Assembly (NCBI GenBank): GCA_951812955.1
Contig: OX638340.1
Coordinates: forward strand, 1,568,001 to 1,632,000
Source: an uncultured Gemmatimonadota bacterium
Lineage (GTDB): Bacteria > JAAXHH01
Reading direction: 5' to 3'
Length of the DNA stretch: 64,000 bases
Shown: positions 1-10,253 of the stretch, piece by piece
Layout: every line of letters begins with the position of its first letter
Position numbering within the stretch: position 1 is the first letter of the stretch
The notes under the pieces: generated by a model
What the model saw: the letters and a program-made list of their open reading frames with translations, nothing else
What the model was told of the DNA's origin: nothing
The model's database searches: none
Made by a program: the position numbers and the translations under genes

Positions 1-506
1 CCATCCACGCGCTGGATCTGCGGCTGGATCACCTTGGTGACGATGTTGTAGAACTCCGCGGGGTCCCCGCTCCACGCCACGCTGAAATTGTAGATGGGCA
101 TATCGTTCGGGTTCCAGCGCCGGATCCGGATGCGTTCGACGTCGGCGGGCAGTTCGCCCCGGACCTGATCGATCCGGTCCCGGACCTCCATGGCCGCCAT
201 GTTCATGTCCGTCCCGGTCTCGAACTCGATGCGCACCCGCGCGTTGTCGTCGCGGGAGTTGGACTCCATGCTCTTCATGTTGCTCAGCGTGCCGAAGGCG
301 TCCTCCAGCGGCCGCGTAATCAGCCGTTCCACTTCCTCGGGCGACGAGGAGGGGTAGGGCACGCTGACGTTCAGGGACGGGAAGGACATGTCCGGCAGGA
401 ACATCAACGGTAGCTTGGTGTAGGATATCATACCCAGCGTGACGACACTGACGATGATCATGATCGTCGTCACCGGGCGGTTTACGGAAAACTCGGCTAT
501 GCTCAT
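1..506 (-). CDS. RND efflux permease (AcrB/MdtC-like), N-terminal part only; the gene runs off the left edge of the window
   Basis: Minus-strand translation from the ATG at 504-506 gives MSIAEFSVNRPVTTIMIIVSVVTLGMISYTKLPLMFLPD, a typical RND N-terminal TM1 and periplasmic porter start. Its ATG overlaps the TGA of the upstream RND gene in an ATGA junction. Confidence 0.8.
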   Translation of the reverse strand, partial: MSIAEFSVNRPVTTIMIIVSVVTLGMISYTKLPLMFLPDMSFPSLNVSVPYPSSSPEEVERLITRPLEDAFGTLSNMKSMESNSRDDNARVRIEFETGTDMNMAAMEVRDRIDQVRGELPADVERIRIRRWNPNDMPIYNFSVAWSGDPAEFYNIVTKVIQPQIQRVD

Positions 507-3500
507 AGCTCTGCCACCTCCTGGGACACCGGTTGCCCGGTTGTTCTTGTGAATAGCTCGTATACCTTTGCCACGGCCGTCTCGATCGTCATGTAGATGA
601 GCGGCACGAGGACCAGCGTCACCACCGTACCGGCGATCAGGCCGCCGATCACGGTGATGGCCATGGGCGCACGCAACTCGGCGCCTTCACCCACGCCGAT
701 GGCCATGGGCAGCAAGCCGAGCACGGTGGTTGCCGTCGTCATCATGATGGGCCACAACCGAGTCTGCGCCGCCTCGACAATGGCGTCCTGCAGTTCCGTT
801 CCCTTCCGGCGCAACTGGTTGATGTAGTCCACCAGCACGATAGCGTTGTTTACCACGATCCCGGTCAGCATGATCACTCCGATCAGCACAACCACGCTGA
901 TCGTCTGGCCCGTGAGCACCAGCGTCGCTACTACGCCAATGATCGAGAACGGAAAAGTGAACATAATCACGAAGGGATGGAGCAGCGATTCGAACTGCGA
1001 CGCCATGACCAGATAGACGAGAAAGATCGAGAGCAGAATGGCGAACTGCAGGCTCGTGAAAGCCACCTGCATTTCCTCGTTCTGCCCCTTTATCCCCACG
1101 ACGAAATCGATAGGAAGCATGAAGCCGTCTATGATCCCCTGAATGTCTTCGGCCGCGTCTCCGAGCGAACGGCCCGACAAACCCGCGGACACGATGGCGA
1201 CCCGTTGCTGGTTGACCCTCCTGATCTCGCTCGGGCCCTGGGCGACACGGACTTCCGCCACGGCCGAGAGCGGAACGGACACCGCGCCTTCCGGGTTTAC
1301 CACCAGCCGCCGTATGGCGTCCAGGCTCAGCCGGGTCTCGTCCTCGGCCCACACACGGATGTCGATCTTCCGGTCCCGCCTCGTTAGCTCCGTGGCCACG
1401 TTGCCCTGGACCTTGTTCTGAACGATCTGGGTGACTGTGCCCAGGTTGAGGCCCAGGTTGGCAAGCTTCCTTCTATCGAAGAGGATCTGCACCTCGGGGT
1501 TTCCGCCTTCCATGCTGGCCTTCACGTCGGTCAGGCCGGGCACCAGGGACATCTCCGACGCGAGGTCTTCGGAAACTTCCGTCAGCCGGGTAAGGTTGTA
1601 TCCGCTGACTTCCACCTCCACCGGATTCTTGAAGCTGAAGAGCGCGGGACGGGCGAACTCGGGCGCTTCGATGCCGGGTATGGGTTCGAAACTGGTCCGC
1701 AAGCGGTTCATGACTTCCTCTTCCACCGCACCGCGGAGTCCGGGTTCAAGCCGGATGTGCAACTGCCCGATGTTCTCCCGTTCCTCGCCGGCGTTGCCGC
1801 CGGACTGGCCCATGGTTCCCGCCAGCACGTACACCGTGCTCACTTCCGGGTAGTCTGAGGCGATGTCCGACATGCGAATCAACACGTCCTCGGTTACCGG
1901 CAGCGGCGTACCCACGGGCAGCTTGACATTGACGAAGAACTCGCCCTGGCTCATCTGCGGGATCAGTTCGATACCGATCGTGGGAACGACATAGAGGGAA
2001 CCTGCCAGCACGGCGGTCCCTGCGAAAAGCGTGAGCGCGCGGTTGACCAGGGCCCATCGGAGGAAGGGCGGGTAGGCCCGGCGGATGACGGGGAAGATCC
2101 GGTCGAAAACCCAGCCCGCGGGCCAGAGTACGGTGCGCACGATCGCCCATGCCGACCAGAGCGTCCATCGCACGAGATAAAACACGCCGGTTACGACATA
2201 TCCCAGTACCTGGGAGAACCCGTTCCAGATCGCGCCGAAAATGGTACGGATCTTACCCAGCGCCGTAGTCGGTTCCTGCGCGGATTGATCGTCCGCGTCG
2301 TTTATGGACGCTTCCCGGTCTCGGTGCAGGATCGACGATATCACCGGTATCAGGGTGACGGCCACCAGGGTGGCCACGATGAGCGAGAAAGTGACGGCCA
2401 GCGCAAGGTCCCGAAACAACTGACCCGCGATGCCTTCCACAAAGACGATGGGCACGAAGACGCACACCGTGGTTAGCGTTGCGGCCACGACGGCCTGTCC
2501 GACCTCCGATGCGCCGAGGCGAACCCGTTCCGCAACGGGCTGATCTCCCCCTCGTCTTCGGTGCCGGTCGATGCCCTCCAGCACCACGATGGAGTTGTCC
2601 ACCAGCATTCCGACCCCCAGGGCCAGGCCGCCGAGGGACATGATGTTCAGCGAGACGTCGAAAACATAGAGAAAGAAAAACGTGGTGACCACCGAAATGG
2701 GGATGGACACGCCGATGATGAGACTGCTCGAACTACGTAGGAAGAGATACAGGACCAGGATGGCGAGTATACCGCCGTACAAGGCCGTCTTGAGCACTTC
2801 GTCCACCGACTGCTGGATGAAAATCGACTGGTCGAAGACGACTTCCAGATTCACCCCGGCGGTGAGTCCCTCCATGTCCGCCCGCACCGAGTCCAGCCGG
2901 TCCTTGACCACGCGCCCGACCTGGATCGTATTGGTTCCGGCTTCCTTGTAGATGGCGATCTCGATACTTTCCCGGCCGTCGATCCGCGCGGAGAGCTTGC
3001 GTTCCTTGTGGCTTTTTGAGACCGAGGCTACGTCGGAAAGCAGGATGGGCACGGTGTTGACCTGGCCGACGATGATATCGCCGATCTCGTCCACGGCCTG
3101 GAACTCGTTCAGGATTCGCACCAGGTATTCCGTCTCGCCGTCCTTGATGGTACCGCCCGCGATATTGACGTTTTCCTGCTCGAGCCGGGTGGCCACCTGG
3201 GTGATGGGAATCCCGAGGCTGGCCAGCCTGGATTCGTCCAGCTCTACGTGGATTTCTTCTTCCAGTCCACCGCTGATCTTGACGGCGGCGACGCCCTCGA
3301 GGGCTTCAAGCTCGCGCTTGATCTCCTCTTCCGCCATGATCCGAAGCGCGGTAAGGCTCTCGTTACCTGACAGGGCAATGCGCAGGATCGGGTCGAGGCT
3401 CGGGTCGAAGCGAAGCAGAATGGGCTTCTCGGCCGCCTGGGGCAAATTGAGCAGGTCGATCTTCTCCCGCACGTTCAGGCTGGCGAAGTCCATGTTGGTG

Positions 3501-3793
3501 CCCCACTCGAACTCCAGGATGACGTCGGACCGTTCCGGGCGCGATATGGAGCTGACGCGCACCACGCCGGTCACCACGCCCACCGCTTCCTCGATGGGTT
3601 CGGAAACGAGGTTCTCGATCTCGTTCGGTGCGGCGCCGATGTATTCGGTCCGCACCGTCAGGGTCGGGTACGTGATGTCCGGGAGCAGGTTGATGGGCAG
3701 CCGTGAGAATGCGATGGAGCCGAAGAGCAGCATCGCCGTCATCAACATGATGATCGTTACGGGCCTGCCGATGGAAAAACCGATGATTTTCAT
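503..3793 (-). CDS. RND family efflux transporter permease (HAE1/AcrB-like), 1096 aa
   Basis: 1096-aa ORF with a 12-TM RND architecture. N-terminus reads MKIIGFSIGRPVTIIMLMTAMLLFG, with large periplasmic loops and conserved TM4/TM10 regions. Lies in an operon with a membrane-fusion protein. Confidence 0.9.
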   Translation of the reverse strand: MKIIGFSIGRPVTIIMLMTAMLLFGSIAFSRLPINLLPDITYPTLTVRTEYIGAAPNEIENLVSEPIEEAVGVVTGVVRVSSISRPERSDVILEFEWGTNMDFASLNVREKIDLLNLPQAAEKPILLRFDPSLDPILRIALSGNESLTALRIMAEEEIKRELEALEGVAAVKISGGLEEEIHVELDESRLASLGIPITQVATRLEQENVNIAGGTIKDGETEYLVRILNEFQAVDEIGDIIVGQVNTVPILLSDVASVSKSHKERKLSARIDGRESIEIAIYKEAGTNTIQVGRVVKDRLDSVRADMEGLTAGVNLEVVFDQSIFIQQSVDEVLKTALYGGILAILVLYLFLRSSSSLIIGVSIPISVVTTFFFLYVFDVSLNIMSLGGLALGVGMLVDNSIVVLEGIDRHRRRGGDQPVAERVRLGASEVGQAVVAATLTTVCVFVPIVFVEGIAGQLFRDLALAVTFSLIVATLVAVTLIPVISSILHRDREASINDADDQSAQEPTTALGKIRTIFGAIWNGFSQVLGYVVTGVFYLVRWTLWSAWAIVRTVLWPAGWVFDRIFPVIRRAYPPFLRWALVNRALTLFAGTAVLAGSLYVVPTIGIELIPQMSQGEFFVNVKLPVGTPLPVTEDVLIRMSDIASDYPEVSTVYVLAGTMGQSGGNAGEERENIGQLHIRLEPGLRGAVEEEVMNRLRTSFEPIPGIEAPEFARPALFSFKNPVEVEVSGYNLTRLTEVSEDLASEMSLVPGLTDVKASMEGGNPEVQILFDRRKLANLGLNLGTVTQIVQNKVQGNVATELTRRDRKIDIRVWAEDETRLSLDAIRRLVVNPEGAVSVPLSAVAEVRVAQGPSEIRRVNQQRVAIVSAGLSGRSLGDAAEDIQGIIDGFMLPIDFVVGIKGQNEEMQVAFTSLQFAILLSIFLVYLVMASQFESLLHPFVIMFTFPFSIIGVVATLVLTGQTISVVVLIGVIMLTGIVVNNAIVLVDYINQLRRKGTELQDAIVEAAQTRLWPIMMTTATTVLGLLPMAIGVGEGAELRAPMAITVIGGLIAGTVVTLVLVPLIYMTIETAVAKVYELFTRTTGQPVSQEVAEL

Positions 3794-3839
3794 GTATAGA
3801 TTACCGTGTCACCTTGGAATTTGAGTTATTGTCGCAAAT

Positions 3840-4304
3840 TTAATGCTCGTCACCGATCAGTTCGTGAATCATCTGGACCAGTGCCTTGCTCGCCTCATCC
3901 ATGTTCGCCGACTCGCGGCGGGCCCCGAGGTAAAGATCCGCATACTGCTTGCAGATCGTAAGCGATGGCGCGAAGGCGCCGGCCGAATCCAGCTCGCGGC
4001 GCACACAGTCCACCGTACGATGAAACGTCTCGACCGTATCGAGGAACCCGTCCTTCAGTTCGGCCTCGCGCACTTTGCCCCAGATATCGGCCAGCACATC
4101 GCCTATTTCGGCCGGTTCGCAAACGCACAGGGTGTGCAGTTTCGGCCAGACCGCCCGGAACCGCTTCTCGACCTCTTCAAGCTTGTCCTCGCCGGGACTT
4201 TCAAGGGTCAGGGACCGCTGGATCAGTTTCTCGTATTCCGGTCCTTCCTGTGCCGCGGCGGGGATCGATATAGACGCAATAAGGAGCAATACTAACCAAC
4301 GCAT
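3840..4304 (-). CDS. Small secreted hypothetical protein (signal peptide, 4 Cys) encoded between the MFP and RND genes
   Basis: Opens with a signal peptide, MRWLVLLLIASISIPAAAQE. Same strand and spacing as the efflux operon. No recognisable family. Confidence 0.5.
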   Translation of the reverse strand: MRWLVLLLIASISIPAAAQEGPEYEKLIQRSLTLESPGEDKLEEVEKRFRAVWPKLHTLCVCEPAEIGDVLADIWGKVREAELKDGFLDTVETFHRTVDCVRRELDSAGAFAPSLTICKQYADLYLGARRESANMDEASKALVQMIHELIGDEH

Positions 4305-4380
4305 AATCTACCTCCCGTGACTGGGCATGTTGATTTCGCGTTCGTGTCTGACTCTTTGTGCTCGGTGATCGGTCAATTCG

Positions 4381-5979
4381 CTACTGCGGACGTCCGCCTC
4401 CATCCATCTTTCGCATATTGCGGAACTGCTCGATCATGAAAGCACGCTGCCTCTCTTCGTCCTCCGCGAAGCTCGGATCCTCTTCCACCTGCTTGTCGTA
4501 GGCCGCCTTGATCTCGGGATTCCGGAACATCCGCTCCTTCATCTGGGCGAGATCCATGTTCATCATACGGTTGCCGCCGCGCATGCCCCCGGTTCCGCCA
4601 CCGTCACCCTGTCCCGCGCCGCCCGCACCGGTCCTGCCGGATCCGCCGATTCCTTCCTGTGCCACCGGACGCCGTTCCGCGTTGCCCTGGCCGCCATCCG
4701 GGTTCGCCGTCGATGCTGCAGGCGCATCGGTCGATTCCGCACCCGAGCCGCCCCTACCTGCCGGCCGGGCGCCTGTTCCGCCATTCGTTCCTCCGGACCG
4801 TCCGCCCATTGCACCAGGCCTGCCGGCCATTCCCGATGGATCGCCGCCCATGCCACCGTCCATGCCTGCCGCGGCGGGCGGGGTCTGTCCAGCGATGCGT
4901 ACAGGCGCGCCGTTCCGGAGTCCTTCCTGGCCCACTGTAATGATGGAATCACCGTCGGACAGACCGGACAGCACCTCGACGTATTCCCCTTCGGCGATGC
5001 CGATTTCAAGGAGCCGCTTTTCGGCCGTGCCGTCCTGGAAAAGAAAGGCGTAGGATCCCTCCGCCTCGGCCACCAGGGCCTTCTTCTCGACCTGCAGCAC
5101 TTCTTCGTGGTTTGCGATCACCAGGTTGACGGTGGTAAACATGCCGGGTCTCAGCGTGCCTTGCCGATCCCTGATTTCCACCGTGACCTTTACCGTTCCG
5201 CTCTGGGGATCCACGACGGGACTGATCCGGGCGACCCGGCCCGCGTGGGTCTGGTCCGATCCCTCGACATTAATGCGCACGGACTGACCGGGCCGAACCT
5301 GTCCGATATCCTTTTCGGGCACGTATATGCGGGCAAGTAGCGGATCGAGATCCGCCGTCCGGAATACCACGTCATTCGCGTTCACCAGGTTTCCCACCTC
5401 GATCAACCGCTCCGTGATTATGCCGGAGAAAGGACTTCGAATCGTAGCGTATTCCAGTTGAAGCTTCGCCGACTCGTACTGGGTCTGTGCGGCCTCGTAC
5501 TGGAACTTCGTCTGTTCGAATTCCTGGCTGCTGAGCAGTTCCCGATCCAGCAGTTCCTGGGACCGATTGTAGTTCGATTCCAGGCTGTTCATGTTCACTT
5601 CCCGTTCCTTGAGCGTCAATTCCAGCGTGTCGGTGTCGAGCTGGGCAAGTGGCTGCCCTTCCTCCACGCGGTCGCCCTCCTCGACCAGGATGGTTTCCAC
5701 GAGCCCTTGCGTGCGGGAGACCACGTCCACGTGCCGCTCCGCCTCCAGCGAAGTGTAGGTCAGCAGCGTCGCGGCGATATTTCCCCGGCCCACGGTTTTC
5801 ACTTCGACCGGTATGGAAGCGCCGGTGCGCGCCATCGCGCCCATGCCGGGCCTGCCGCCGCGCTGAGCCTGATCTCCGTTTTCCTCCGCCTCCTCGTCGC
5901 CGCCGCAGGCGAGCGTGCCCGCCAACGCCAGTACCATCGACCAGGAAGCCAGTTTCCCTATCCCGAACCGCTTGAACAT
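4381..5979 (-). CDS. RND efflux membrane-fusion protein (HlyD/AcrA family periplasmic adaptor lipoprotein) with a ~170-aa Gly-rich C-terminal extension
   Basis: Biotinyl-lipoyl-like and beta-barrel MFP motifs (YESAKLQLEYATIRSPFSGII, VVDPQSGTVKVTVEI). Lipobox LAGTLAC. A GAAGGAG RBS sits 7 nt before the ATG at 5979; the ORF extends to 5994. The C-terminal tail is rich in GGMGG/GGTGG repeats. Confidence 0.85.
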   Translation of the reverse strand: MFKRFGIGKLASWSMVLALAGTLACGGDEEAEENGDQAQRGGRPGMGAMARTGASIPVEVKTVGRGNIAATLLTYTSLEAERHVDVVSRTQGLVETILVEEGDRVEEGQPLAQLDTDTLELTLKEREVNMNSLESNYNRSQELLDRELLSSQEFEQTKFQYEAAQTQYESAKLQLEYATIRSPFSGIITERLIEVGNLVNANDVVFRTADLDPLLARIYVPEKDIGQVRPGQSVRINVEGSDQTHAGRVARISPVVDPQSGTVKVTVEIRDRQGTLRPGMFTTVNLVIANHEEVLQVEKKALVAEAEGSYAFLFQDGTAEKRLLEIGIAEGEYVEVLSGLSDGDSIITVGQEGLRNGAPVRIAGQTPPAAAGMDGGMGGDPSGMAGRPGAMGGRSGGTNGGTGARPAGRGGSGAESTDAPAASTANPDGGQGNAERRPVAQEGIGGSGRTGAGGAGQGDGGGTGGMRGGNRMMNMDLAQMKERMFRNPEIKAAYDKQVEEDPSFAEDEERQRAFMIEQFRNMRKMDGGGRPQ

Positions 5980-6136
5980 GAACTGCTCCTTCAAATGTTA
6001 GACCCGGTGCACACCGGTCTCTTGATTTCTCCGGCCAACCTGCCCGCCCAAAGGGCTTTCCCTGCTACTTCAAAAGGACCCGGCCATCCGGACACGCCAT
6101 TGAATGGCACGGTGCCGGCCACTTCGGCCAGCCCCG

Positions 6137-6595
6137 CTATCTTCGACGGTATCCGCTTCTGAATCGCTCCTTGATCATGGTGAAGAACTTCGTCTGCTGT
6201 TCCGGGGTCAGCACCTCTTTGTGCGCCACGATGAAATCGAATACGATGGCCTCCCGTTCCGCCTGGAGCGAATCCATCTGCGCCTTGATCCGGTCGATCT
6301 CTCCGCGGTCTGTATCCGGCGCCATGAGCAGATCGTACAACTGGTCGCGTTTTTCTCGGTAACCTTCCCGGTAAGGCGTCAGTTGATCTCCGAGTCCGGA
6401 ACGCATTTGCCTGACCTGTTCCGCCTGTGTTTCAGTGAGACCGAGCCGTTCGGTTATGGACATCCTTCCCTCGCGCCGATCCTGCCGGTCGCGCCGTTCG
6501 TCGTCACCCCAGCGGTGATAGGCGCGGGTGGCCAGAGAGGCCAGGTTGATGACGGTCAGCAGGACCACGCCCCATATGATCAGTTTCTTCTTCAT
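6137..6595 (-). CDS. Spy/CpxP/ZraP-family periplasmic LTXXQ-motif protein (envelope stress chaperone / metal-resistance associated)
   Basis: N-terminal signal/TM segment and two LTXXQ motifs (LTETQAEQV, LTPEQQTKF). Charged helical protein immediately downstream of a sigma/anti-sigma pair. Confidence 0.7.
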   Translation of the reverse strand: MKKKLIIWGVVLLTVINLASLATRAYHRWGDDERRDRQDRREGRMSITERLGLTETQAEQVRQMRSGLGDQLTPYREGYREKRDQLYDLLMAPDTDRGEIDRIKAQMDSLQAEREAIVFDFIVAHKEVLTPEQQTKFFTMIKERFRSGYRRR

Positions 6596-6668
6596 CTGCC
6601 CGGTTCTTTCCTCGATTTGCCGTCAGACTGAACGGCTTTTGTACCGGTGTGTTCGCTCATCTGCCGGA

Positions 6669-7172
6669 TTAATCCCCGATTTCGTCCAGGTCCGGCAGCA
6701 GATAGTCCAGCTCGACCGTCTCGGCCGAGATTTGCTGAAGATCATCGGCAAAAGAGTACGCCAGTATACCCGTTTCCGAAGGCATCGGTTCGACTTGCGC
6801 AGCTTCTCCTTCGGTGCCGCTGCCGAGATAGGCGCCGATCACGATTCCGGCGGCCATCGTGACGGCCATCAACGCCGGCCGGACGAGCAAGGCGATCCGC
6901 GTCCCGACCGTCGGACCAGGTTCGATGGAGTCCTCGCCTCGAAGAGCCGCCTCGAAACGCGTACGCAGCCGAAGGGTAGGTCCGGTCACGTGCAGAAGGC
7001 TATCGGAATGCCAGGTTTCCCGCAGCGCGTCTACCCGTTCACGGCATCGGGGGCAGGTACGCAGGTGCGCCTCGCACTGTACCCGTTCTTCCGACGGAAG
7101 TTCTCCGTCGATGTAGAGGATGATTCGATCTTCGAGGTGACGATGATTCACGATGGAAGCCCGCCTGGTCAT
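6669..7172 (-). CDS. Anti-sigma factor, zinc-finger (zf-HC2) type, single TM
   Basis: Carries HLRTCPRCRERVDAL, the H-x3-C-x2-C motif of zinc-finger anti-sigma factors, plus a central TM helix. Directly follows the ECF sigma gene. Confidence 0.7.
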   Translation of the reverse strand: MTRRASIVNHRHLEDRIILYIDGELPSEERVQCEAHLRTCPRCRERVDALRETWHSDSLLHVTGPTLRLRTRFEAALRGEDSIEPGPTVGTRIALLVRPALMAVTMAAGIVIGAYLGSGTEGEAAQVEPMPSETGILAYSFADDLQQISAETVELDYLLPDLDEIGD

Positions 7173-7317
7173 GGTCGTGTGGGTTAATGGGACGGTGCCA
7201 CTACCCGTCCTGTTCGGTCACTACCCGTCCTGTCCCTTCCTAATGTGCTTAGACAATCCATCCGCTTCAACCATTCGTTTTTTGTGCATTGCCCAGCGGC
7301 AGAATCGGGGCGAACGT

Positions 7318-7908
7318 CTAAAGATCGCCCAGCAGCGGCCGCAGACGCTTGCCGAGGTTCGTCTTGGCCCGGTGCAGCAGGGACTCCACCGCGGAAGGCG
7401 AACATTCCATTACCTGGGCGATGGACTTGTATGACATTCGTTCGAAATGGGAGAGGATCAGGGCGGTACGCTGTCTTTCAGGAAGCGCGTCGATCGCCTT
7501 CCCGACGATGCGTTCCCTGTCCGCCTGCTGAAGTTCCTCCTCTGCGCCGACGCTCCGGTTACCGTGCGACGTCGCTTCATCGGCGCCTTCGTTCCAGAAG
7601 TCGAGGGCAAGCCACTGTAACCGGCGTTTCCGGCGCCGGACGTTCAGGCACTGGTTTACCGCGATACGGTAGAGCCAGGTGCCCGGGTCGGCATCCCCTC
7701 TGAACCGGTCGTATGCTTCCATGGCCCGGACGAAAACCTCCTGGGTAATGTCCTCCGCCTCCTGCGGATGTTCCATGAGCCGGTAGCAGGTCTGGTAGAT
7801 GCGCGCATGCCAGGCATCGAAGAGCCTTCGAAAGACCTCCTGCCGGTCTTCGGGAGCGTCTTCCCGGCGATCTCCGGATTGCTGTTTTTCGGCCACTGGC
7901 AACGGCAC
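7318..7908 (-). CDS. ECF (sigma-70 family, RpoE-like) RNA polymerase sigma factor
   Basis: Region 2 (DITQEVFVRAMEAYDRF, WLYRIAVNQCLN) and region 4 helix-turn-helix (MSYKSIAQVMECSPSAVESLLHRAK) are recognisable. Confidence 0.85.
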   Translation of the reverse strand: MPLPVAEKQQSGDRREDAPEDRQEVFRRLFDAWHARIYQTCYRLMEHPQEAEDITQEVFVRAMEAYDRFRGDADPGTWLYRIAVNQCLNVRRRKRRLQWLALDFWNEGADEATSHGNRSVGAEEELQQADRERIVGKAIDALPERQRTALILSHFERMSYKSIAQVMECSPSAVESLLHRAKTNLGKRLRPLLGDL

Positions 7909-8231
7909 CTTTCAGTCTGTCCTGGCGGATCTGGGAAAACACGTGCGCCGTCAACAATACTGCGGGACGGACCATGAATTCCGCGGGCTATCTTACCCTT
8001 GCGCCTCGAACGAACGGTCGCTATAATGAAGACGTTCGAAAAACTACTGATTCCCATGCTGACGAACGCAATGGAACGCGATGCGACGGACCGTTCGACG
8101 GAGATCCCACGTCTTCCAGGGCTTTCGCCGGACCCGGTTTCCATCCAGAATATACCATTTGAACGCAGATTTCTTGTCTATATGTTGACCCGCCCGAAAG
8201 CGGAGAAGCCACGAAGCCTGCGCGACAGGGC

Positions 8232-9218
8232 ATGACGGAGGTGGACATGTCACCCATTACCGATGAGCAGATGGCATTCTTCAAAGACCAGGGATACCTG
8301 ATGGTGAGGGGGTTGCTGGATCAGGAGGAAGTACTCGATCCCGTGATCGAGGAATACGGTACCGTGCTCGATCAGTTGGCGGAAGAGCTTTTCCTGGCGG
8401 GTAAAATCGAATCGAAATACGAAGATCTGCCATTTGGCGAACGCATCACGAAAGTCTGGGGTGAAAGCGGCAAGGTCCATGCCCAGTGTTTCGATTTCAC
8501 CCTGCCCCAGGGCAACATCAAGGAAGACACGCCGTTCTGGTGCGGTCCGGCGGTGTTCAACGTCCTGACAGATCCGCGGCTGCTCGACGCCGTGGAGGCC
8601 TTCATCGGCCCCGAAATCTACTCCAACCCGGTCCAGCATGTACGCATCAAGCTTCCTGAACACTTGACGCCCATCAATCCGGCGACTGGGCGCATTCAGC
8701 TCGGCATATCCCCGTGGCACCAGGACAACGGCGTCGTCACGAAGGAGGCCGATGACACCCACATGCTCACGGTCTGGTTCTCGCTGAGGGAAGCGACGAT
8801 CGAACAGGGATGCCTCACCGTCATTCCCGAAAGCCACCGCGACGGCCTGCTGCACCACTGCCCTGACATCTGGGGCCTCGAAATTCCCGAGAAGGTGAAG
8901 GACCGGTCCGCCGCCGTTCCCATGCCGACCAAGCCCGGTGACGTCCTGTTCCTGCACAAGCACACCTGCCACTCGTCGCTGCCCAACAAGAGCAACGAGA
9001 TCCGGTGGAGCTACGACCTGAGGTACAACCCGATCGGCCAGGCCTCCGGACGGGGCGCCTTCCCGGGATTCGTGGCCCGCAGCCGGACCAATCCAGAGTG
9101 GGTCCTGACCGATCCCGTCGCGTGGAACCAGATGTGGCTGGATGCCAGGGACGCCCTCGCCGGCATGCCCAATCCGTCCTTCAACCGCTGGAGCAAGGAT
9201 CACGAAATCTGCGCGTGA
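8232..9218 (+). CDS. Phytanoyl-CoA dioxygenase (PhyH) family Fe(II)/2-oxoglutarate-dependent oxygenase
   Basis: PhyH-type HxD..H facial triad (WHQDNG ... HKHTCHSS) and the typical N-terminal FFKDQGYLMV motif. Confidence 0.8.
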   Translation: MTEVDMSPITDEQMAFFKDQGYLMVRGLLDQEEVLDPVIEEYGTVLDQLAEELFLAGKIESKYEDLPFGERITKVWGESGKVHAQCFDFTLPQGNIKEDTPFWCGPAVFNVLTDPRLLDAVEAFIGPEIYSNPVQHVRIKLPEHLTPINPATGRIQLGISPWHQDNGVVTKEADDTHMLTVWFSLREATIEQGCLTVIPESHRDGLLHHCPDIWGLEIPEKVKDRSAAVPMPTKPGDVLFLHKHTCHSSLPNKSNEIRWSYDLRYNPIGQASGRGAFPGFVARSRTNPEWVLTDPVAWNQMWLDARDALAGMPNPSFNRWSKDHEICA

Positions 9219-9386: not shown

Positions 9387-10253
9387 TCACTGAAAACGCA
9401 CACCCGCCTTCGCTGCGGATTCCACCAGAAACCGCCTGACCTCCTCCACCTGTCCATAGTCGGTCAGGTGTTCCACGACCACACACGTCCATTCCGGCAA
9501 GGCCGAAGCGCGGCACAACAGGCGCCCGTAGTCCAGCACGCCCTGTCCGGCGGGCCGTTCCTCGAGGTGTACGATCGACTGTACCTCCCGGGCCGCCGAG
9601 TCCTTGGCGTGGACGTTCACGATTCGGCTTCCAAGGCGGTCGAAGGCATCGTCCATAAAAGCGCCCGAATCATACAGCGAAAGGGGATCGAGGATGTTGG
9701 CCGGATCGAAGTTGATGCCGACTCCGGGTTGGTCGATCTCCTCTAAAAGCGCTACGGCGCGGTCCACGGTGGACAGGATCGTCATGAGCGACATCTCCGG
9801 CGCGACGGATATGCCGAAATCGGCCGCGAACGGCGCGATTTCCTTCAACGCGACGGCCAGACGATCCAGCGCTTCCTCGCCGTGATTCTCCAGATGGGGA
9901 TACCATGCGTTCGCGGGGTGCATGCCCCCGGCCTCCGTGAGTAACACCCGGCAACCGAGGGCCGCGGCCAGGGGCACGCGATCCCGCAGGATCTGCAAGT
10001 GGGCCGCCGATTCACCAGGATCCGGACGCACGAACGGAGTGCCCACGCTCCAGACCTGGCCGATGGCGATCCCTTCCCCGTCCAGGATCTTTCGGACCTT
10101 GCCGGCAGCGTCCTTATCGACGGCGACGGACCGTTCCAGGTCCACGCCCACCGCGGAGAAACCAAGGTCCCTGATCCAGCTCGCGGTCCCCTTCGTGATC
10201 CGGTCGAGCGGCGGAACGAAACTATCCAGGCAGAGTCTCATGGGAGATTCCAA
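9387..10253 (-). CDS. Sugar phosphate isomerase/epimerase (xylose-isomerase-like TIM barrel)
   Basis: AP-endonuclease-2/xylose-isomerase-like TIM-barrel signatures (NVHAKD, VVVEH, divalent-metal ligand pattern). Confidence 0.75.
   Translation of the reverse strand: MESPMRLCLDSFVPPLDRITKGTASWIRDLGFSAVGVDLERSVAVDKDAAGKVRKILDGEGIAIGQVWSVGTPFVRPDPGESAAHLQILRDRVPLAAALGCRVLLTEAGGMHPANAWYPHLENHGEEALDRLAVALKEIAPFAADFGISVAPEMSLMTILSTVDRAVALLEEIDQPGVGINFDPANILDPLSLYDSGAFMDDAFDRLGSRIVNVHAKDSAAREVQSIVHLEERPAGQGVLDYGRLLCRASALPEWTCVVVEHLTDYGQVEEVRRFLVESAAKAGVRFQ

What the first reader, a model, noticed from the sequence alone, without database searches (positions are those of the whole stretch)
1..7908. 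ECF sigma / anti-sigma / Spy-CpxP-like / MFP / small secreted protein / tandem RND-RND operon
All seven genes are co-directional with short gaps. The two RND genes overlap in an ATGA junction, which points to an MdtBC-like heteromultimeric pump.

An LTXXQ periplasmic protein of the Spy/CpxP/ZraP type is encoded together with an ECF sigma/anti-sigma pair directly upstream of an efflux system. This suggests a self-contained envelope-stress or metal-stress sensing efflux module, rather than a TetR-regulated pump.
Basis: partly seen in the sequence, partly recalled or inferred. Interest (0 to 1): 0.55.

Follow-up and report, generated by a model that had tools for sequence, protein, structure and literature searches.

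The report
Sigma-factor-controlled double efflux pump operon
This is a real, conserved gene cluster in an uncultured bacterium: an alternative sigma factor, its membrane anti-sigma factor and a membrane-anchored Spy/CpxP-like protein sit in front of a two-transporter efflux pump that they very probably switch on. All parts are of known kinds, so it is a new variant and not a new system.

Summary
All seven minus-strand genes exist as described, including the ATGA overlap between the two RND genes. The window edge cuts the second RND gene.

Gene order is conserved in 14 or more related loci from MAGs labelled Gemmatimonadota or Latescibacterota. The small secreted gene is the exception: it is missing in some relatives and decayed in others, so it is not a core part.

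The trio of sigma, zinc-finger anti-sigma and PF13801/LTXXQ protein matches the published gene context of ECF group ECF281. Its closest studied analogue is CnrYXH-CnrCBA.

New here is a strictly conserved two-part promoter, CGAATG-N17-GTCTAA, at 7277-7249. It lies between the sigma and anti-sigma genes, not upstream of the sigma or LTXXQ genes. In 64 distant metagenomic loci the same motif precedes the anti-sigma genes and the pump genes: 44 sites on the operon strand, 6 on the other, about 2 expected by chance. In 20 of 30 informative distant loci the trio is followed by a pump, either RND or MacB-type ABC.

Neither RND protein is a heavy-metal (HME) type, a canonical HAE1 type, or an MdtB/MdtC orthologue. 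No metal-binding signature was found, and there is no outer-membrane factor gene in the operon.

Verdict: ordinary parts in a modestly new regulatory arrangement.

The parts
8149..8189 (-). Conserved housekeeping-type promoter candidate for the sigma gene: GTCAAC-ATA-T(A/T)GACA, about 20 nt, then TGGTATATT (extended -10-like). It would give a leader of about 230 nt.
   Evidence: Conserved in all 10 close loci and in sister-clade loci L028-L030. Its function is inferred only.
7318..7908 (-). ECF (group 4) sigma factor, 196 aa. The start is GTG 7908 or TTG 7902.
   Evidence: Sigma70_r2 at 1e-18, Sigma70_r4_2 at 1.6e-17 and TIGR02937 at 111 bits. It is 76-95% identical in L001-L010 and 27% identical to CnrH.
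7247..7284 (-). ECF-type two-part promoter: A-tract, -35 CGAATG (7277-7272), 17-nt spacer of variable sequence, -10 GTCTAA (7254-7249). The predicted transcription start is near 7242, which would drive the anti-sigma gene and everything downstream.
   Evidence: Both boxes are invariant and the spacing is fixed in 10 of 10 close loci. The site is unique in the 64-kb window: PWM score 45.9, with no other independent site above the cut-off of 12. The exact pattern is expected 0.01 times by chance. Variants sit at the same position in L019 and L028-L030. The family-wide motif is enriched 44:6 by strand against about 2 in shuffles.
6669..7172 (-). Anti-sigma factor: N-terminal zf-HC2 domain with HxxxCxxC, one transmembrane helix, and a periplasmic tail of about 45 aa. 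An alternative start is GTG 7151.
   Evidence: zf-HC2 at 2.3e-10. The alignment shows a conserved transmembrane helix and tail motif.
6137..6595 (-). Membrane-anchored Spy/CpxP/CnrX-fold protein (PF13801/PF07813) with two LTXXQ motifs.
   Evidence: Family matches. Spy is the best PDB sequence hit, E 5e-4. The AF2 model has pLDDT about 90 for aa 47-148 and matches CpxP, Spy, CnrXs and ZraP with TM 0.7-0.86. N-terminal helix residues K3, W8, L12, L13, N17 and L21 are invariant down to 30% identity.
5998..6026 (-). Weak candidate second ECF-type promoter, ATCAAG-N17-GTCTAA, directly before the MFP ribosome-binding site.
   Evidence: Read from the sequence. It is conserved only in the closest relatives and degenerate in others. 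It corresponds in position to the strong motif sites upstream of MFP/OMF genes in distant loci.
4381..5994 (-). RND membrane-fusion (adaptor) protein. The core is aa 63-367. The tail is a variable Gly/Met-rich linker followed by an invariant C-terminal module of about 55 aa (4384-4569).
   Evidence: TIGR01730 at 262 bits. Tail alignment. The tail has no Pfam, PDB or LTXXQ-profile match.
3840..4304 (-). Small secreted all-helical protein, 154 aa, belonging to a sparse orphan family. It is a lineage-specific insert and probably not a pump part.
   Evidence: No Pfam match. Only 24 and 20 relatives were found in the two searches. AF2 pLDDT 86, with no real fold match. It is absent in L019, L028 and L030 and deleted or frameshifted in L009 and L010. 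Remote relatives lie in non-efflux contexts.
503..3793 (-). RND permease 1, 1096 aa, with a hydrophobic insertion of about 50 aa in the TM6-TM7 linker.
   Evidence: ACR_tran at 818 bits. Best solved-structure match is MdtB at 379 bits, then ZneA at 329. Residue and tree analysis.
1..506 (-). RND permease 2, cut by the window edge. It is 1026 aa in relatives. Its start overlaps the RND1 stop as ATGA.
   Evidence: The full-length orthologue in L001 is 100% identical over the 168 aa that are visible.

Best explanation
This is an envelope-signal-responsive efflux operon.

Proposed mechanism:
- The ECF sigma factor is made from its own upstream housekeeping-type promoter. It is held at the membrane by the single-pass zinc-finger anti-sigma factor.
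- The membrane-anchored Spy/CpxP/CnrX-fold protein acts together with the anti-sigma factor's short periplasmic tail as the periplasmic sensing element.
- When the still-unknown envelope signal arrives, sigma is released. It then transcribes from the CGAATG-N17-GTCTAA promoter that lies between the sigma and anti-sigma genes.
- This yields one long transcript: anti-sigma, LTXXQ protein, MFP, small protein, RND1, RND2.
- The response therefore makes the pump and, at the same time, replenishes its own inhibitor. That is negative feedback without obvious sigma auto-amplification.
- RND1 and RND2 are ancient, translationally coupled paralogues of an uncharacterised RND subfamily. They share one adaptor and use an outer-membrane channel encoded elsewhere.

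Shown here: gene identities, conserved order, the conserved promoter-like element, and its family-wide association with anti-sigma and pump genes.

Inferred: which sigma reads the promoter, the sensing role of the LTXXQ protein, the single transcript, heteromer formation, and the substrate.
For: - Domain assignments are.
- Gene order is kept in L001-L010, L019, L026, L028 and L030, while protein identity falls to 48-78%.
- The promoter element has both boxes invariant, a fixed 17-nt spacing and a variable spacer sequence in 10 of 10 close loci. It is unique in the window. It is retained as CGCATG...GTCAAA in L019 and as CGCAAG...GTCCAA in L028-L030.
- In 64 metagenomic loci the motif G[AC]A[ATG]G-N17-GTC[TCA]AA occurs 44 times on the operon strand and 6 times on the other strand, against 2.2 in shuffles. 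Twenty-two sites lie just upstream of anti-sigma genes and 14 upstream of MFP/OMF genes.
- Twenty of 30 distant loci with enough downstream DNA carry efflux genes directly after the trio. Where the non-RND pumps were examined, they are MacB-type ABC pumps.
- The N-terminal helix of the LTXXQ protein has invariant residues, including a mid-helix Asn, down to 30% identity. This points to a retained membrane anchor, as in CnrX.
- No terminator-like sites lie between the genes.
- The RND1/RND2 overlap or near-abutment is conserved.
Against: - There are no expression data, so the promoter is a conserved motif and not a mapped start site.
- The gaps of 142 nt before the MFP gene and 76 nt before the small gene could hold further promoters. 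A weak GTCTAA site does exist before the MFP gene.
- ECF sigma factors usually auto-activate, yet no clear copy of the motif precedes the sigma gene here. Only a CGCAAG box at 8003-7998 is present, without a matching -10.
- The LTXXQ protein could be an output chaperone like Spy and not a sensor.
- Many of the 64 metagenomic loci are near-duplicates of each other, so the counts are not independent.
- Heteromer formation is untested.
Confidence: 0.6

Rival explanations
1. It is a heavy-metal resistance determinant of the CnrYXH-CnrCBA kind. The PF13801 protein binds a periplasmic metal ion, and the pump exports that metal.
For: - PF13801 ('heavy-metal resistance') matches both the window protein and CnrX itself (91 bits).
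- The model superposes on CnrXs with TM 0.76-0.78.
- ECF281 was suggested to be metal-related (PMC7826278).
- RND1's second-best solved relative is ZneA.
- The MFP linker is Met-rich, with 13 Met in 165 aa.
- One distant trio, L018, lies next to YHYH and SCO1 genes.
Against: - Reading the two sequences in register with LKPEH/LTPEQ, the CnrX ligand positions H42, H46, H119 and M123 are not conserved.
- The protein has only two His and no Cys.
- Both RND proteins lack the HME DFG...DGA...VEN motif that CnrA has, and lack the CusA methionine triad.
- TIGR00914 scores 480 bits, below its cut-off of 701.
- The Met-rich linker varies in length and sequence.
- By sequence, the best solved relative of the LTXXQ protein is the chaperone Spy, and CnrX is not hit.
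Confidence: 0.15
2. The LTXXQ protein is only an output chaperone, like Spy in the Bae and Cpx regulons. The anti-sigma factor senses on its own, either through its cytoplasmic zinc-finger (redox) or through regulated proteolysis of its periplasmic tail.
For: - Spy is the best sequence match.
- The gene lies downstream of the ECF-type promoter, so it is itself induced.
- The anti-sigma factor has an HxxxCxxC motif.
- It is well established that E. coli Spy and MdtABC are co-induced outputs of BaeSR.
Against: - The N-terminal transmembrane segment is conserved far beyond what a cleavable signal peptide needs.
- The protein sits immediately after the anti-sigma gene in nearly every lineage, whatever output follows.
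- The zinc ligands are lost in L002 and L003 while the system is otherwise intact, so redox sensing is not essential.
Confidence: 0.2
3. The regulatory trio and the pump are merely neighbours. The pump is a housekeeping system with its own promoter, and the sigma factor controls other genes.
For: - The 142-nt gap before the MFP gene contains a partly conserved element.
- In the window the motif occurs only once.
- Some distant trios have no pump next to them (L033, L047, L057, L058, L065).
Against: - Trio-plus-pump linkage is kept across clades, even when the pump type changes from RND to ABC.
- In distant loci the same motif that precedes anti-sigma genes also precedes MFP/OMF genes.
- No terminator separates the genes.
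- No other regulator gene lies nearby.
Confidence: 0.1

Closest known systems
CnrYXH-CnrCBA (cobalt-nickel resistance, Cupriavidus metallidurans pMOL28; ECF291)
   Same: - An ECF sigma, a single-pass anti-sigma and a membrane-anchored PF13801 periplasmic protein lie next to an RND pump (L087).
- In both systems the regulatory genes and the pump lie in a single cluster on one strand.
- The periplasmic protein has the same fold.
   Different: - Gene order is Y-X-H there, against sigma, anti-sigma, LTXXQ here.
- The anti-sigma factor is CnrY type (PF17524) there and zf-HC2 here.
- The CnrX metal ligands are not conserved here.
- CnrA carries the HME motif, while RND1 and RND2 do not.
- Cnr has one RND protein plus an OMF. 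Here there are two RND proteins and no OMF.
- The sigma factors are only 27% identical.
ECF group ECF281 (Casas-Pastor et al. 2021, PMC7826278)
   Same: The group's defining context is a zinc-finger anti-sigma gene at +1 and a PF13801 'heavy-metal resistance' protein at +2. That is exactly what is seen here.
   Different: - Assignment by the group's own HMM could not be run.
- The held text of the paper does not mention efflux genes beyond +2, a promoter placed between the sigma and anti-sigma genes, or any studied member.
BaeSR regulon of E. coli (mdtABCD-baeSR, spy)
   Same: An envelope-stress circuit co-induces a Spy-type protein and a pump with one adaptor and two adjacent RND genes (L011; the regulon content is established knowledge).
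   Different: - That circuit is a two-component system, not an ECF / anti-sigma pair.
- Spy is soluble and encoded elsewhere.
- MdtB and MdtC are 50% identical HAE1 members with the D-D/K relay. RND1 and RND2 are 31% identical, lie outside that clade and have a D-N(A)/N relay.
CpxP-CpxA
   Same: A periplasmic LTXXQ protein modulates a membrane signalling protein and is itself induced by the pathway. CpxP is the top fold match.
   Different: - The partner there is a histidine kinase.
- CpxP is soluble.
- The NCBIfam CpxP models score far below their cut-offs.
SmeIJK of Stenotrophomonas maltophilia and its link to the sigma-E envelope stress response (PMC4229105)
   Same: It is a one-adaptor, two-RND pump tied to an ECF-mediated envelope stress response.
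   Different: The sigma factor there is the general RpoE and is encoded elsewhere. No LTXXQ partner is involved. The pump is of the MdtABC/HAE1 type.

Membership tests
ECF (group 4) sigma-70 factors | Only sigma-2 and sigma-4 domains are present; the protein scores above the TIGR02937 cut-off | tested here: met
   Sigma70_r2 at 67 bits, r4_2 at 63 bits, and TIGR02937 at 111 bits against a cut-off of 42.9.
ECF281 | Zinc-finger anti-sigma gene at position +1 | tested here: met
   zf-HC2 at 2.3e-10 in the next gene. The group definition is taken from PMC7826278.
ECF281 | PF13801 protein at position +2 | tested here: met
   PF13801 at 5.2e-15.
ECF281 | Sequence assignment by the ECF-classification HMM of that group | not testable with these tools
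   The group HMMs are not in any available library, and the paper's supplement is not held.
Zinc-binding (ZAS-type) class I anti-sigma factors | HxxxCxxC motif in the N-terminal anti-sigma domain | tested here: met
   The window protein has AHLRTCPRC. The motif is lost in L002 and L003, which read YLRTHPRY.
Spy/CpxP/ZraP/CnrX fold (PF07813/PF13801) | Two LTXXQ motifs and the hooked helical-hairpin fold | tested here: met
   LTETQ and LTPEQ are present. Both Pfam models score above their cut-offs. The model matches CpxP, Spy, CnrXs and ZraP with TM 0.7-0.86.
CnrX-type Ni/Co sensor | Metal ligands H42, H46, E63, H119, M123 (known from the CnrX structures) | tested here: not met
   Reading the two sequences in register with LKPEH/LTPEQ, there is no His at the H42/H46 region, H119 is replaced by F and M123 by H. 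The profile comparison gives only 2.8% probability.
Spy (soluble periplasmic chaperone) | Cleaved signal peptide and a soluble protein; scores above the NF007769 cut-off | tested here: not met
   NF007769 scores 27 bits against a cut-off of 174. The N-terminal hydrophobic helix has invariant residues across 30-97% identity, which suggests a retained anchor. Cleavage itself was not tested.
HME-RND (CzcA/CnrA type) | TM4 motif DFG...DGA...VEN; TIGR00914 cut-off | tested here: not met
   RND1 reads LALGVGMLVDNSIVVLEG and RND2 reads LMLAVGMLVDAAVVVLES, against DFGLIIDGAVIIVEN in CnrA. TIGR00914 scores 480 bits, below the cut-off of 701.
CusA-type Cu/Ag RND | Methionine triad M573/M623/M672 and the D405/E939/K984 relay | tested here: not met
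   The aligned residues are N/I/L in RND1 and A/R/Y in RND2. At the E939 and K984 positions both have N and I.
HAE1 RND (AcrB/MexB/MdtBC type) | TM4 D407-D408 with TM10 K940; TIGR00915 cut-off; placement in the clade | tested here: not met
   The relay residues are D-N / N in RND1 and D-A / N in RND2, while R971 and T978 are kept. TIGR00915 scores 434 bits, below the cut-off of 940. AcrB, MdtB and MdtC form a clade with 100% bootstrap that excludes both proteins.
MdtBC/MuxBC/SmeJK-type heteromultimeric RND pump | One adaptor gene followed by two adjacent RND genes | tested here: met
   The order is MFP, then RND1, then RND2 with the ATGA overlap. This is conserved in relatives.
MdtBC/MuxBC/SmeJK-type heteromultimeric RND pump | Orthology to MdtB and MdtC | tested here: not met
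   Both proteins are 25-27% identical to MdtB and to MdtC. The equivalog models score 417-427 bits against cut-offs of 1584-1774.
MdtBC/MuxBC/SmeJK-type heteromultimeric RND pump | Physical heterotrimer | not testable with these tools
   This needs co-purification or a structure.
Tripartite RND efflux operon | Outer-membrane factor encoded with the pump | tested here: not met
   Convergent, unrelated genes follow RND2 in L001-L003 and L019. No OMF was found in the window by tblastn or by Pfam scans of 10 large ORFs.

The most novel reading that the evidence does not exclude
The trio of ECF sigma, zinc-finger anti-sigma and membrane-anchored Spy/CpxP-fold protein may be a widespread, still unstudied, dedicated sensor-regulator for tripartite efflux pumps in non-model phyla. 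It would plug into either RND or MacB-type ABC pumps. It would use a signature promoter, CG(C/A)A(A/T/G)G-N17-GTC(T/C/A)AA, placed after the sigma gene. The response would then induce the pump and the inhibitor but not the sigma factor.
Probability: 0.45. Interest if true: 0.55.

Novelty: new variant of a known kind. Interest (0 to 1): 0.35.

Why it matters
If the inference holds, it gives a concrete, testable regulatory logic and a cognate promoter motif for an ECF group (ECF281-like) for which no experimentally studied member turned up in the library searched. It would also show that this sensor module has been coupled repeatedly to different efflux machines, RND here and MacB-type ABC elsewhere. 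That is useful for annotating efflux regulation in uncultured phyla and as a possible orthogonal sigma/promoter pair. It does not change how ECF signalling or RND pumps are understood.

Tried and rejected
1. MFP tail as a tethered LTXXQ-like module. The 'MDLAQ...EERQRAF' pattern looked similar, but profile-profile comparison gave 0.8% probability. There were no PDB or Pfam hits. The last homology search found only fragments from the same clade.
2. Small secreted protein as a CusF-like periplasmic metallochaperone, suggested by the conserved H57, CxC and His residues.
   - It has no family or fold match.
   - Only C60 and C118 are invariant in remote relatives, which probably marks a disulfide.
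   - Remote relatives lie in unrelated contexts.
   - The gene is absent or decayed in sister operons.
3. Structured RNA in the intergenic regions. Rfam found nothing at E up to 1. The fold of the anti-sigma leader is no better than shuffles, z = -0.27.
4. The 21-nt leader repeat as a dispersed element. It occurs only locally, and TRF found nothing notable.
5. A second strong copy of the promoter elsewhere in the window. The PWM scan found none.
6. Exact look-up of RND1 to recover the source contig. It is not on record, so close relatives were used instead.
7. An OMF gene in the window. None was found.
8. The generic sigma-70 and terminator scan was uninformative, with counts equal to shuffles.
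9. Bootstrap values for the deep RND nodes were low or unreliable. Only the exclusion from the AcrB/MdtBC clade is used.

Full report
**Observation**

Seven minus-strand ORFs fill 7908-1.

| Gene | Coordinates | Size | Main evidence |
|---|---|---|---|
| ECF sigma | 7908-7318 | 196 aa | Sigma70_r2 and r4_2; TIGR02937 at 111 bits |
| Anti-sigma | 7172-6669 | 167 aa | zf-HC2 at 2.3e-10 |
| LTXXQ protein | 6595-6137 | 152 aa | PF13801 at 5e-15; PF07813 at 1e-7 |
| MFP (adaptor) | 5994-4381 | 537 aa | TIGR01730 at 262 bits |
| Small secreted protein | 4304-3840 | 154 aa | signal peptide, no family |
| RND1 | 3793-503 | 1096 aa | ACR_tran at 818 bits |
| RND2 | 506 to window edge | first 168 aa | ACR_tran |

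The likely MFP start is ATG 5979, behind a GAAGGAG ribosome-binding site, which matches the 532-aa call in L001. The RND1 stop and RND2 start overlap as ATGA. The gaps are 145, 73, 142, 76, 46 and -4 nt. No terminator-like site lies between genes on this strand, and terminator counts equal those of shuffles.

**Organism and conservation**

The small protein has only 24 relatives, in MAGs labelled Gemmatimonadota or Candidatus Latescibacterota. Ten related loci, L001-L010, keep the same order. A divergent PhyH-family gene lies upstream, and unrelated convergent genes follow a 1026-aa RND2. None of these loci has an outer-membrane factor gene.

Conservation is uneven. RND1 is 90-98% identical, the anti-sigma factor 63-96%, and the small protein 51-94%. 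The small gene carries an internal deletion in L009 and a frameshift in L010. More distant operons, L019, L028 and L030, have sigma, anti-sigma, LTXXQ, MFP, RND1 and RND2 but no small gene at all.

An exhaustive profile search found a sparse family of secreted proteins of about 150 aa. They share only C60, C118, Y125 and R129, and they sit in unrelated, accessory-looking contexts. The model of the small protein is a confident helical bundle with no meaningful fold match. I conclude that the small gene is a lineage-specific insert and not a core pump part.

**The regulatory trio**

The anti-sigma factor has an N-terminal HxxxCxxC domain, one transmembrane helix and a conserved periplasmic tail of about 45 residues. 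L002 and L003 have lost the zinc ligands.

The LTXXQ protein's best solved sequence relative is Spy, at E 5e-4. Its modelled periplasmic domain superposes equally well on CpxP, Spy, CnrXs and ZraP. Its N-terminal hydrophobic helix keeps invariant residues (K3, W8, L12, L13, N17, L21) even at 30% overall identity. That is unlike a disposable signal peptide and suggests a retained membrane anchor, as in CnrX.

CnrX itself belongs to PF13801. However, read in register with the shared LKPEH/LTPEQ motif, its metal ligands are not conserved in the window protein. The profile comparison of the two is weak.

The published ECF classification describes exactly this context for group ECF281: a zinc-finger anti-sigma gene at +1 and a PF13801 protein at +2 (PMC7826278). 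No other paper in the library mentions that group. The trio is therefore of a known kind.

**Promoters**

Aligning the intergenic regions across loci revealed one outstanding element. It lies between the sigma stop and the anti-sigma start and consists of:
- an A-tract;
- CGAATG;
- a 17-nt spacer of fixed length but free sequence;
- GTCTAA.

Both boxes are invariant in all ten close loci. In the window it occupies 7284-7247. It is unique in the 64 kb: the PWM score is 45.9, with no other independent site above the cut-off of 12, and the exact pattern is expected 0.01 times by chance. The same element sits at the same place in L019 as CGCATG...GTCAAA and in L028-L030 as CGCAAG...GTCCAA.

A scan of metagenome contigs with an LTXXQ alignment returned 64 loci. 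In them the pattern G[AC]A[ATG]G-N17-GTC[TCA]AA occurs 44 times on the operon strand against 6 on the other strand and 2.2 in shuffles. Twenty-two sites lie just upstream of anti-sigma genes, 14 lie upstream of MFP or OMF genes, and only one lies upstream of a sigma gene. L018 carries the motif both before its sigma gene and before the next gene.

This distribution is what the cognate promoter of this ECF family would show. A -10 element of GTCTAA/GTCAAA is typical of ECF promoters such as those read by sigma-E (established knowledge).

Upstream of the window's sigma gene there is instead a conserved TTGACA-like box plus TGGTATATT, at 8189-8149. It is also kept in the sister clade and I read it as a housekeeping-type promoter. 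A weaker ATCAAG-N17-GTCTAA sits at 6026-5998, right before the MFP ribosome-binding site, and is conserved only among the nearest relatives. Rfam finds nothing in this region, and the anti-sigma leader has no significant fold.

**Link to efflux**

Thirty distant loci (LTXXQ identity below 60%) have at least 2.5 kb of downstream sequence. In 20 of them MFP or OMF genes follow the trio directly.
- Two of these are the RND sister clade.
- The others that were examined encode OMF, MFP, an ABC ATPase and two MacB-type permeases.
- One further trio follows a MacAB-like set.
- Another lies next to YHYH and SCO1 genes.
- Some trios are followed by T9SS-tailed proteins with LTXXQ-like repeats.

Several contigs are near-duplicates of each other, so these counts are not independent. 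It also shows that the module is portable between pump types.

**The pump**

Both RND proteins hit MdtB best among solved structures, but weakly: 379 and 316 bits. ZneA is second for RND1.

| Comparison | Identity |
|---|---|
| RND1 vs RND2 | 31% |
| Either vs MdtB or MdtC | 25-27% |
| Either vs AcrB | 23-24% |
| Either vs CusA | 21-25% |
| Either vs CnrA | 24-27% |
| MdtB vs MdtC | 50% |

In a neighbour-joining tree AcrB, MdtB and MdtC form a clade with 100% bootstrap support that excludes both proteins. The nearest relatives are uncharacterised RND proteins of Brevibacillus, Leptospira and Parabacteroides, at 28-36% identity.

Both proteins keep the TM4 Asp (AcrB D407), R971 and T978. Both replace D408 (by N in RND1, A in RND2) and K940 (by N). 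The Brevibacillus protein shares this signature. Both lack the HME DFG...DGA...VEN motif that CnrA shows, and both lack the CusA methionine triad. All curated subfamily cut-offs are missed.

So the pair is neither HME nor canonical HAE1 nor orthologous to MdtB/MdtC. A heteromultimer is plausible from the conserved translational coupling, but it is untested. The Leptospira plasmid also shows an MFP-RND-RND arrangement without an OMF gene.

**Mechanism proposed**

Sigma is made constitutively and is sequestered by the membrane anti-sigma factor. The anchored Spy/CpxP-fold protein acts with the anti-sigma tail as the periplasmic sensor. On signal, sigma fires the promoter at 7277-7249 and transcribes anti-sigma through RND2. 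This induces the pump and replenishes the inhibitor. The substrate and the signal are unknown, and nothing in the sequences points specifically to metals.

The rivals are a Cnr-like metal system, the LTXXQ protein as a mere output chaperone, and simple neighbourhood without regulation. They are weighed in their own section of this report.

**Comparison and novelty**

The closest known systems are these:
- CnrYXH-CnrCBA has the same logic and the same sensor fold family. It differs in anti-sigma type, gene order, RND class and metal site.
- ECF281 has the same gene context.
- BaeSR controlling MdtABC and Spy has the same set of outputs under a different regulator type.
- SmeIJK is a two-RND pump tied to an ECF envelope stress response (PMC4229105).

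Four things are modestly new: the defined promoter motif, its position after the sigma gene, the recurrent coupling of this trio to RND or MacB pumps, and the divergent RND pair. I rate this a new variant of a known kind, with interest 0.35.

Noticed in passing
window 2099-2251 (-), RND1 aa ~515-565: RND1 carries a hydrophobic, Trp-rich insertion of about 50 aa in the TM6-TM7 linker. It could form an extra helical hairpin. It is kept in L019, L028 and L030 but is absent from RND2 and from every reference RND protein compared.
   Followed up: partly
window 4384-4878 (-), MFP aa 373-537: The adaptor protein has a C-terminal tail. It is a Gly/Met-rich linker of variable length (13 Met in 165 aa) followed by an invariant module of about 55 aa (MDLxQMKERMFQNPxIKAAYDKQVEEDPxFAxDEExQRAF). 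No homologue was found outside this clade and its sister clade.
   Followed up: yes
window 7193-7233 (-); L001/L008 same region; L004 ~1890-2160 and 2660-2840; L028 ~9990-10030: The intergenic leaders of this operon are hot spots for local tandem duplication, with copy number differing between close relatives. The window has a 21-nt unit twice, and L001 and L008 have more copies. In L004 the 3' end of the sigma gene is repeated three times. L028 has GTCTGAAT five times after the MFP stop.
   Followed up: partly
window 7990-8004 (-): A conserved block, GCGCAAGGGTAAGAT, lies about 90 nt upstream of the sigma start. Its CGCAAG equals the -35 box of the family motif, but no matching GTCTAA follows at 17 nt. 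It could be a degenerate auto-regulatory promoter or a binding site.
   Followed up: partly
L002/L003 anti-sigma (7452-7952): These orthologues have lost the zinc ligands of the HxxxCxxC motif, reading YLRTHPRY, while the rest of the operon is intact.
   Followed up: no
L034 1729-3246 and 6936-8456: One metagenomic contig carries two sigma / anti-sigma / LTXXQ trios in tandem. Five sites with the family's CGCAAG/CGCAGG -35 box lie on the operon strand of this contig, among seven matches to the looser search pattern.
   Followed up: no
L033 7680-9050, L057 8773-10137, L065 8801-9940: In some lineages the trio is followed not by a pump but by a protein of 380-456 aa. It has weak, repeated LTXXQ/Metal_resist-like matches and a type IX secretion C-terminal sorting domain.
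   Followed up: no
L021 4478-12203 (Leptospira interrogans plasmid): This plasmid has an MFP (499 aa), RND, RND arrangement without an OMF gene. The second RND protein lacks the TM4 and TM10 relay residues altogether.
   Followed up: no
L087 33260-33300 and 34640-34670 (pMOL28 cnrY and cnrC upstream regions): Both regions share (C/T)C(A/G)AGG-N18-CGTATA. The -35-like box resembles the CGCAAGG/CGAATGG box found here. This is my own reading, and it was not checked against mapped cnr transcription start sites.
   Followed up: no
window 8232-9218 (+) and 9387-10253 (-): The neighbours are a divergent PhyH-family dioxygenase and a xylose-isomerase-like TIM-barrel gene. Their synteny with the operon is conserved in all close relatives. 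The rest of the window carries housekeeping genes such as UvrB, GltX, Amt and a MacB-type permease.
   Followed up: partly
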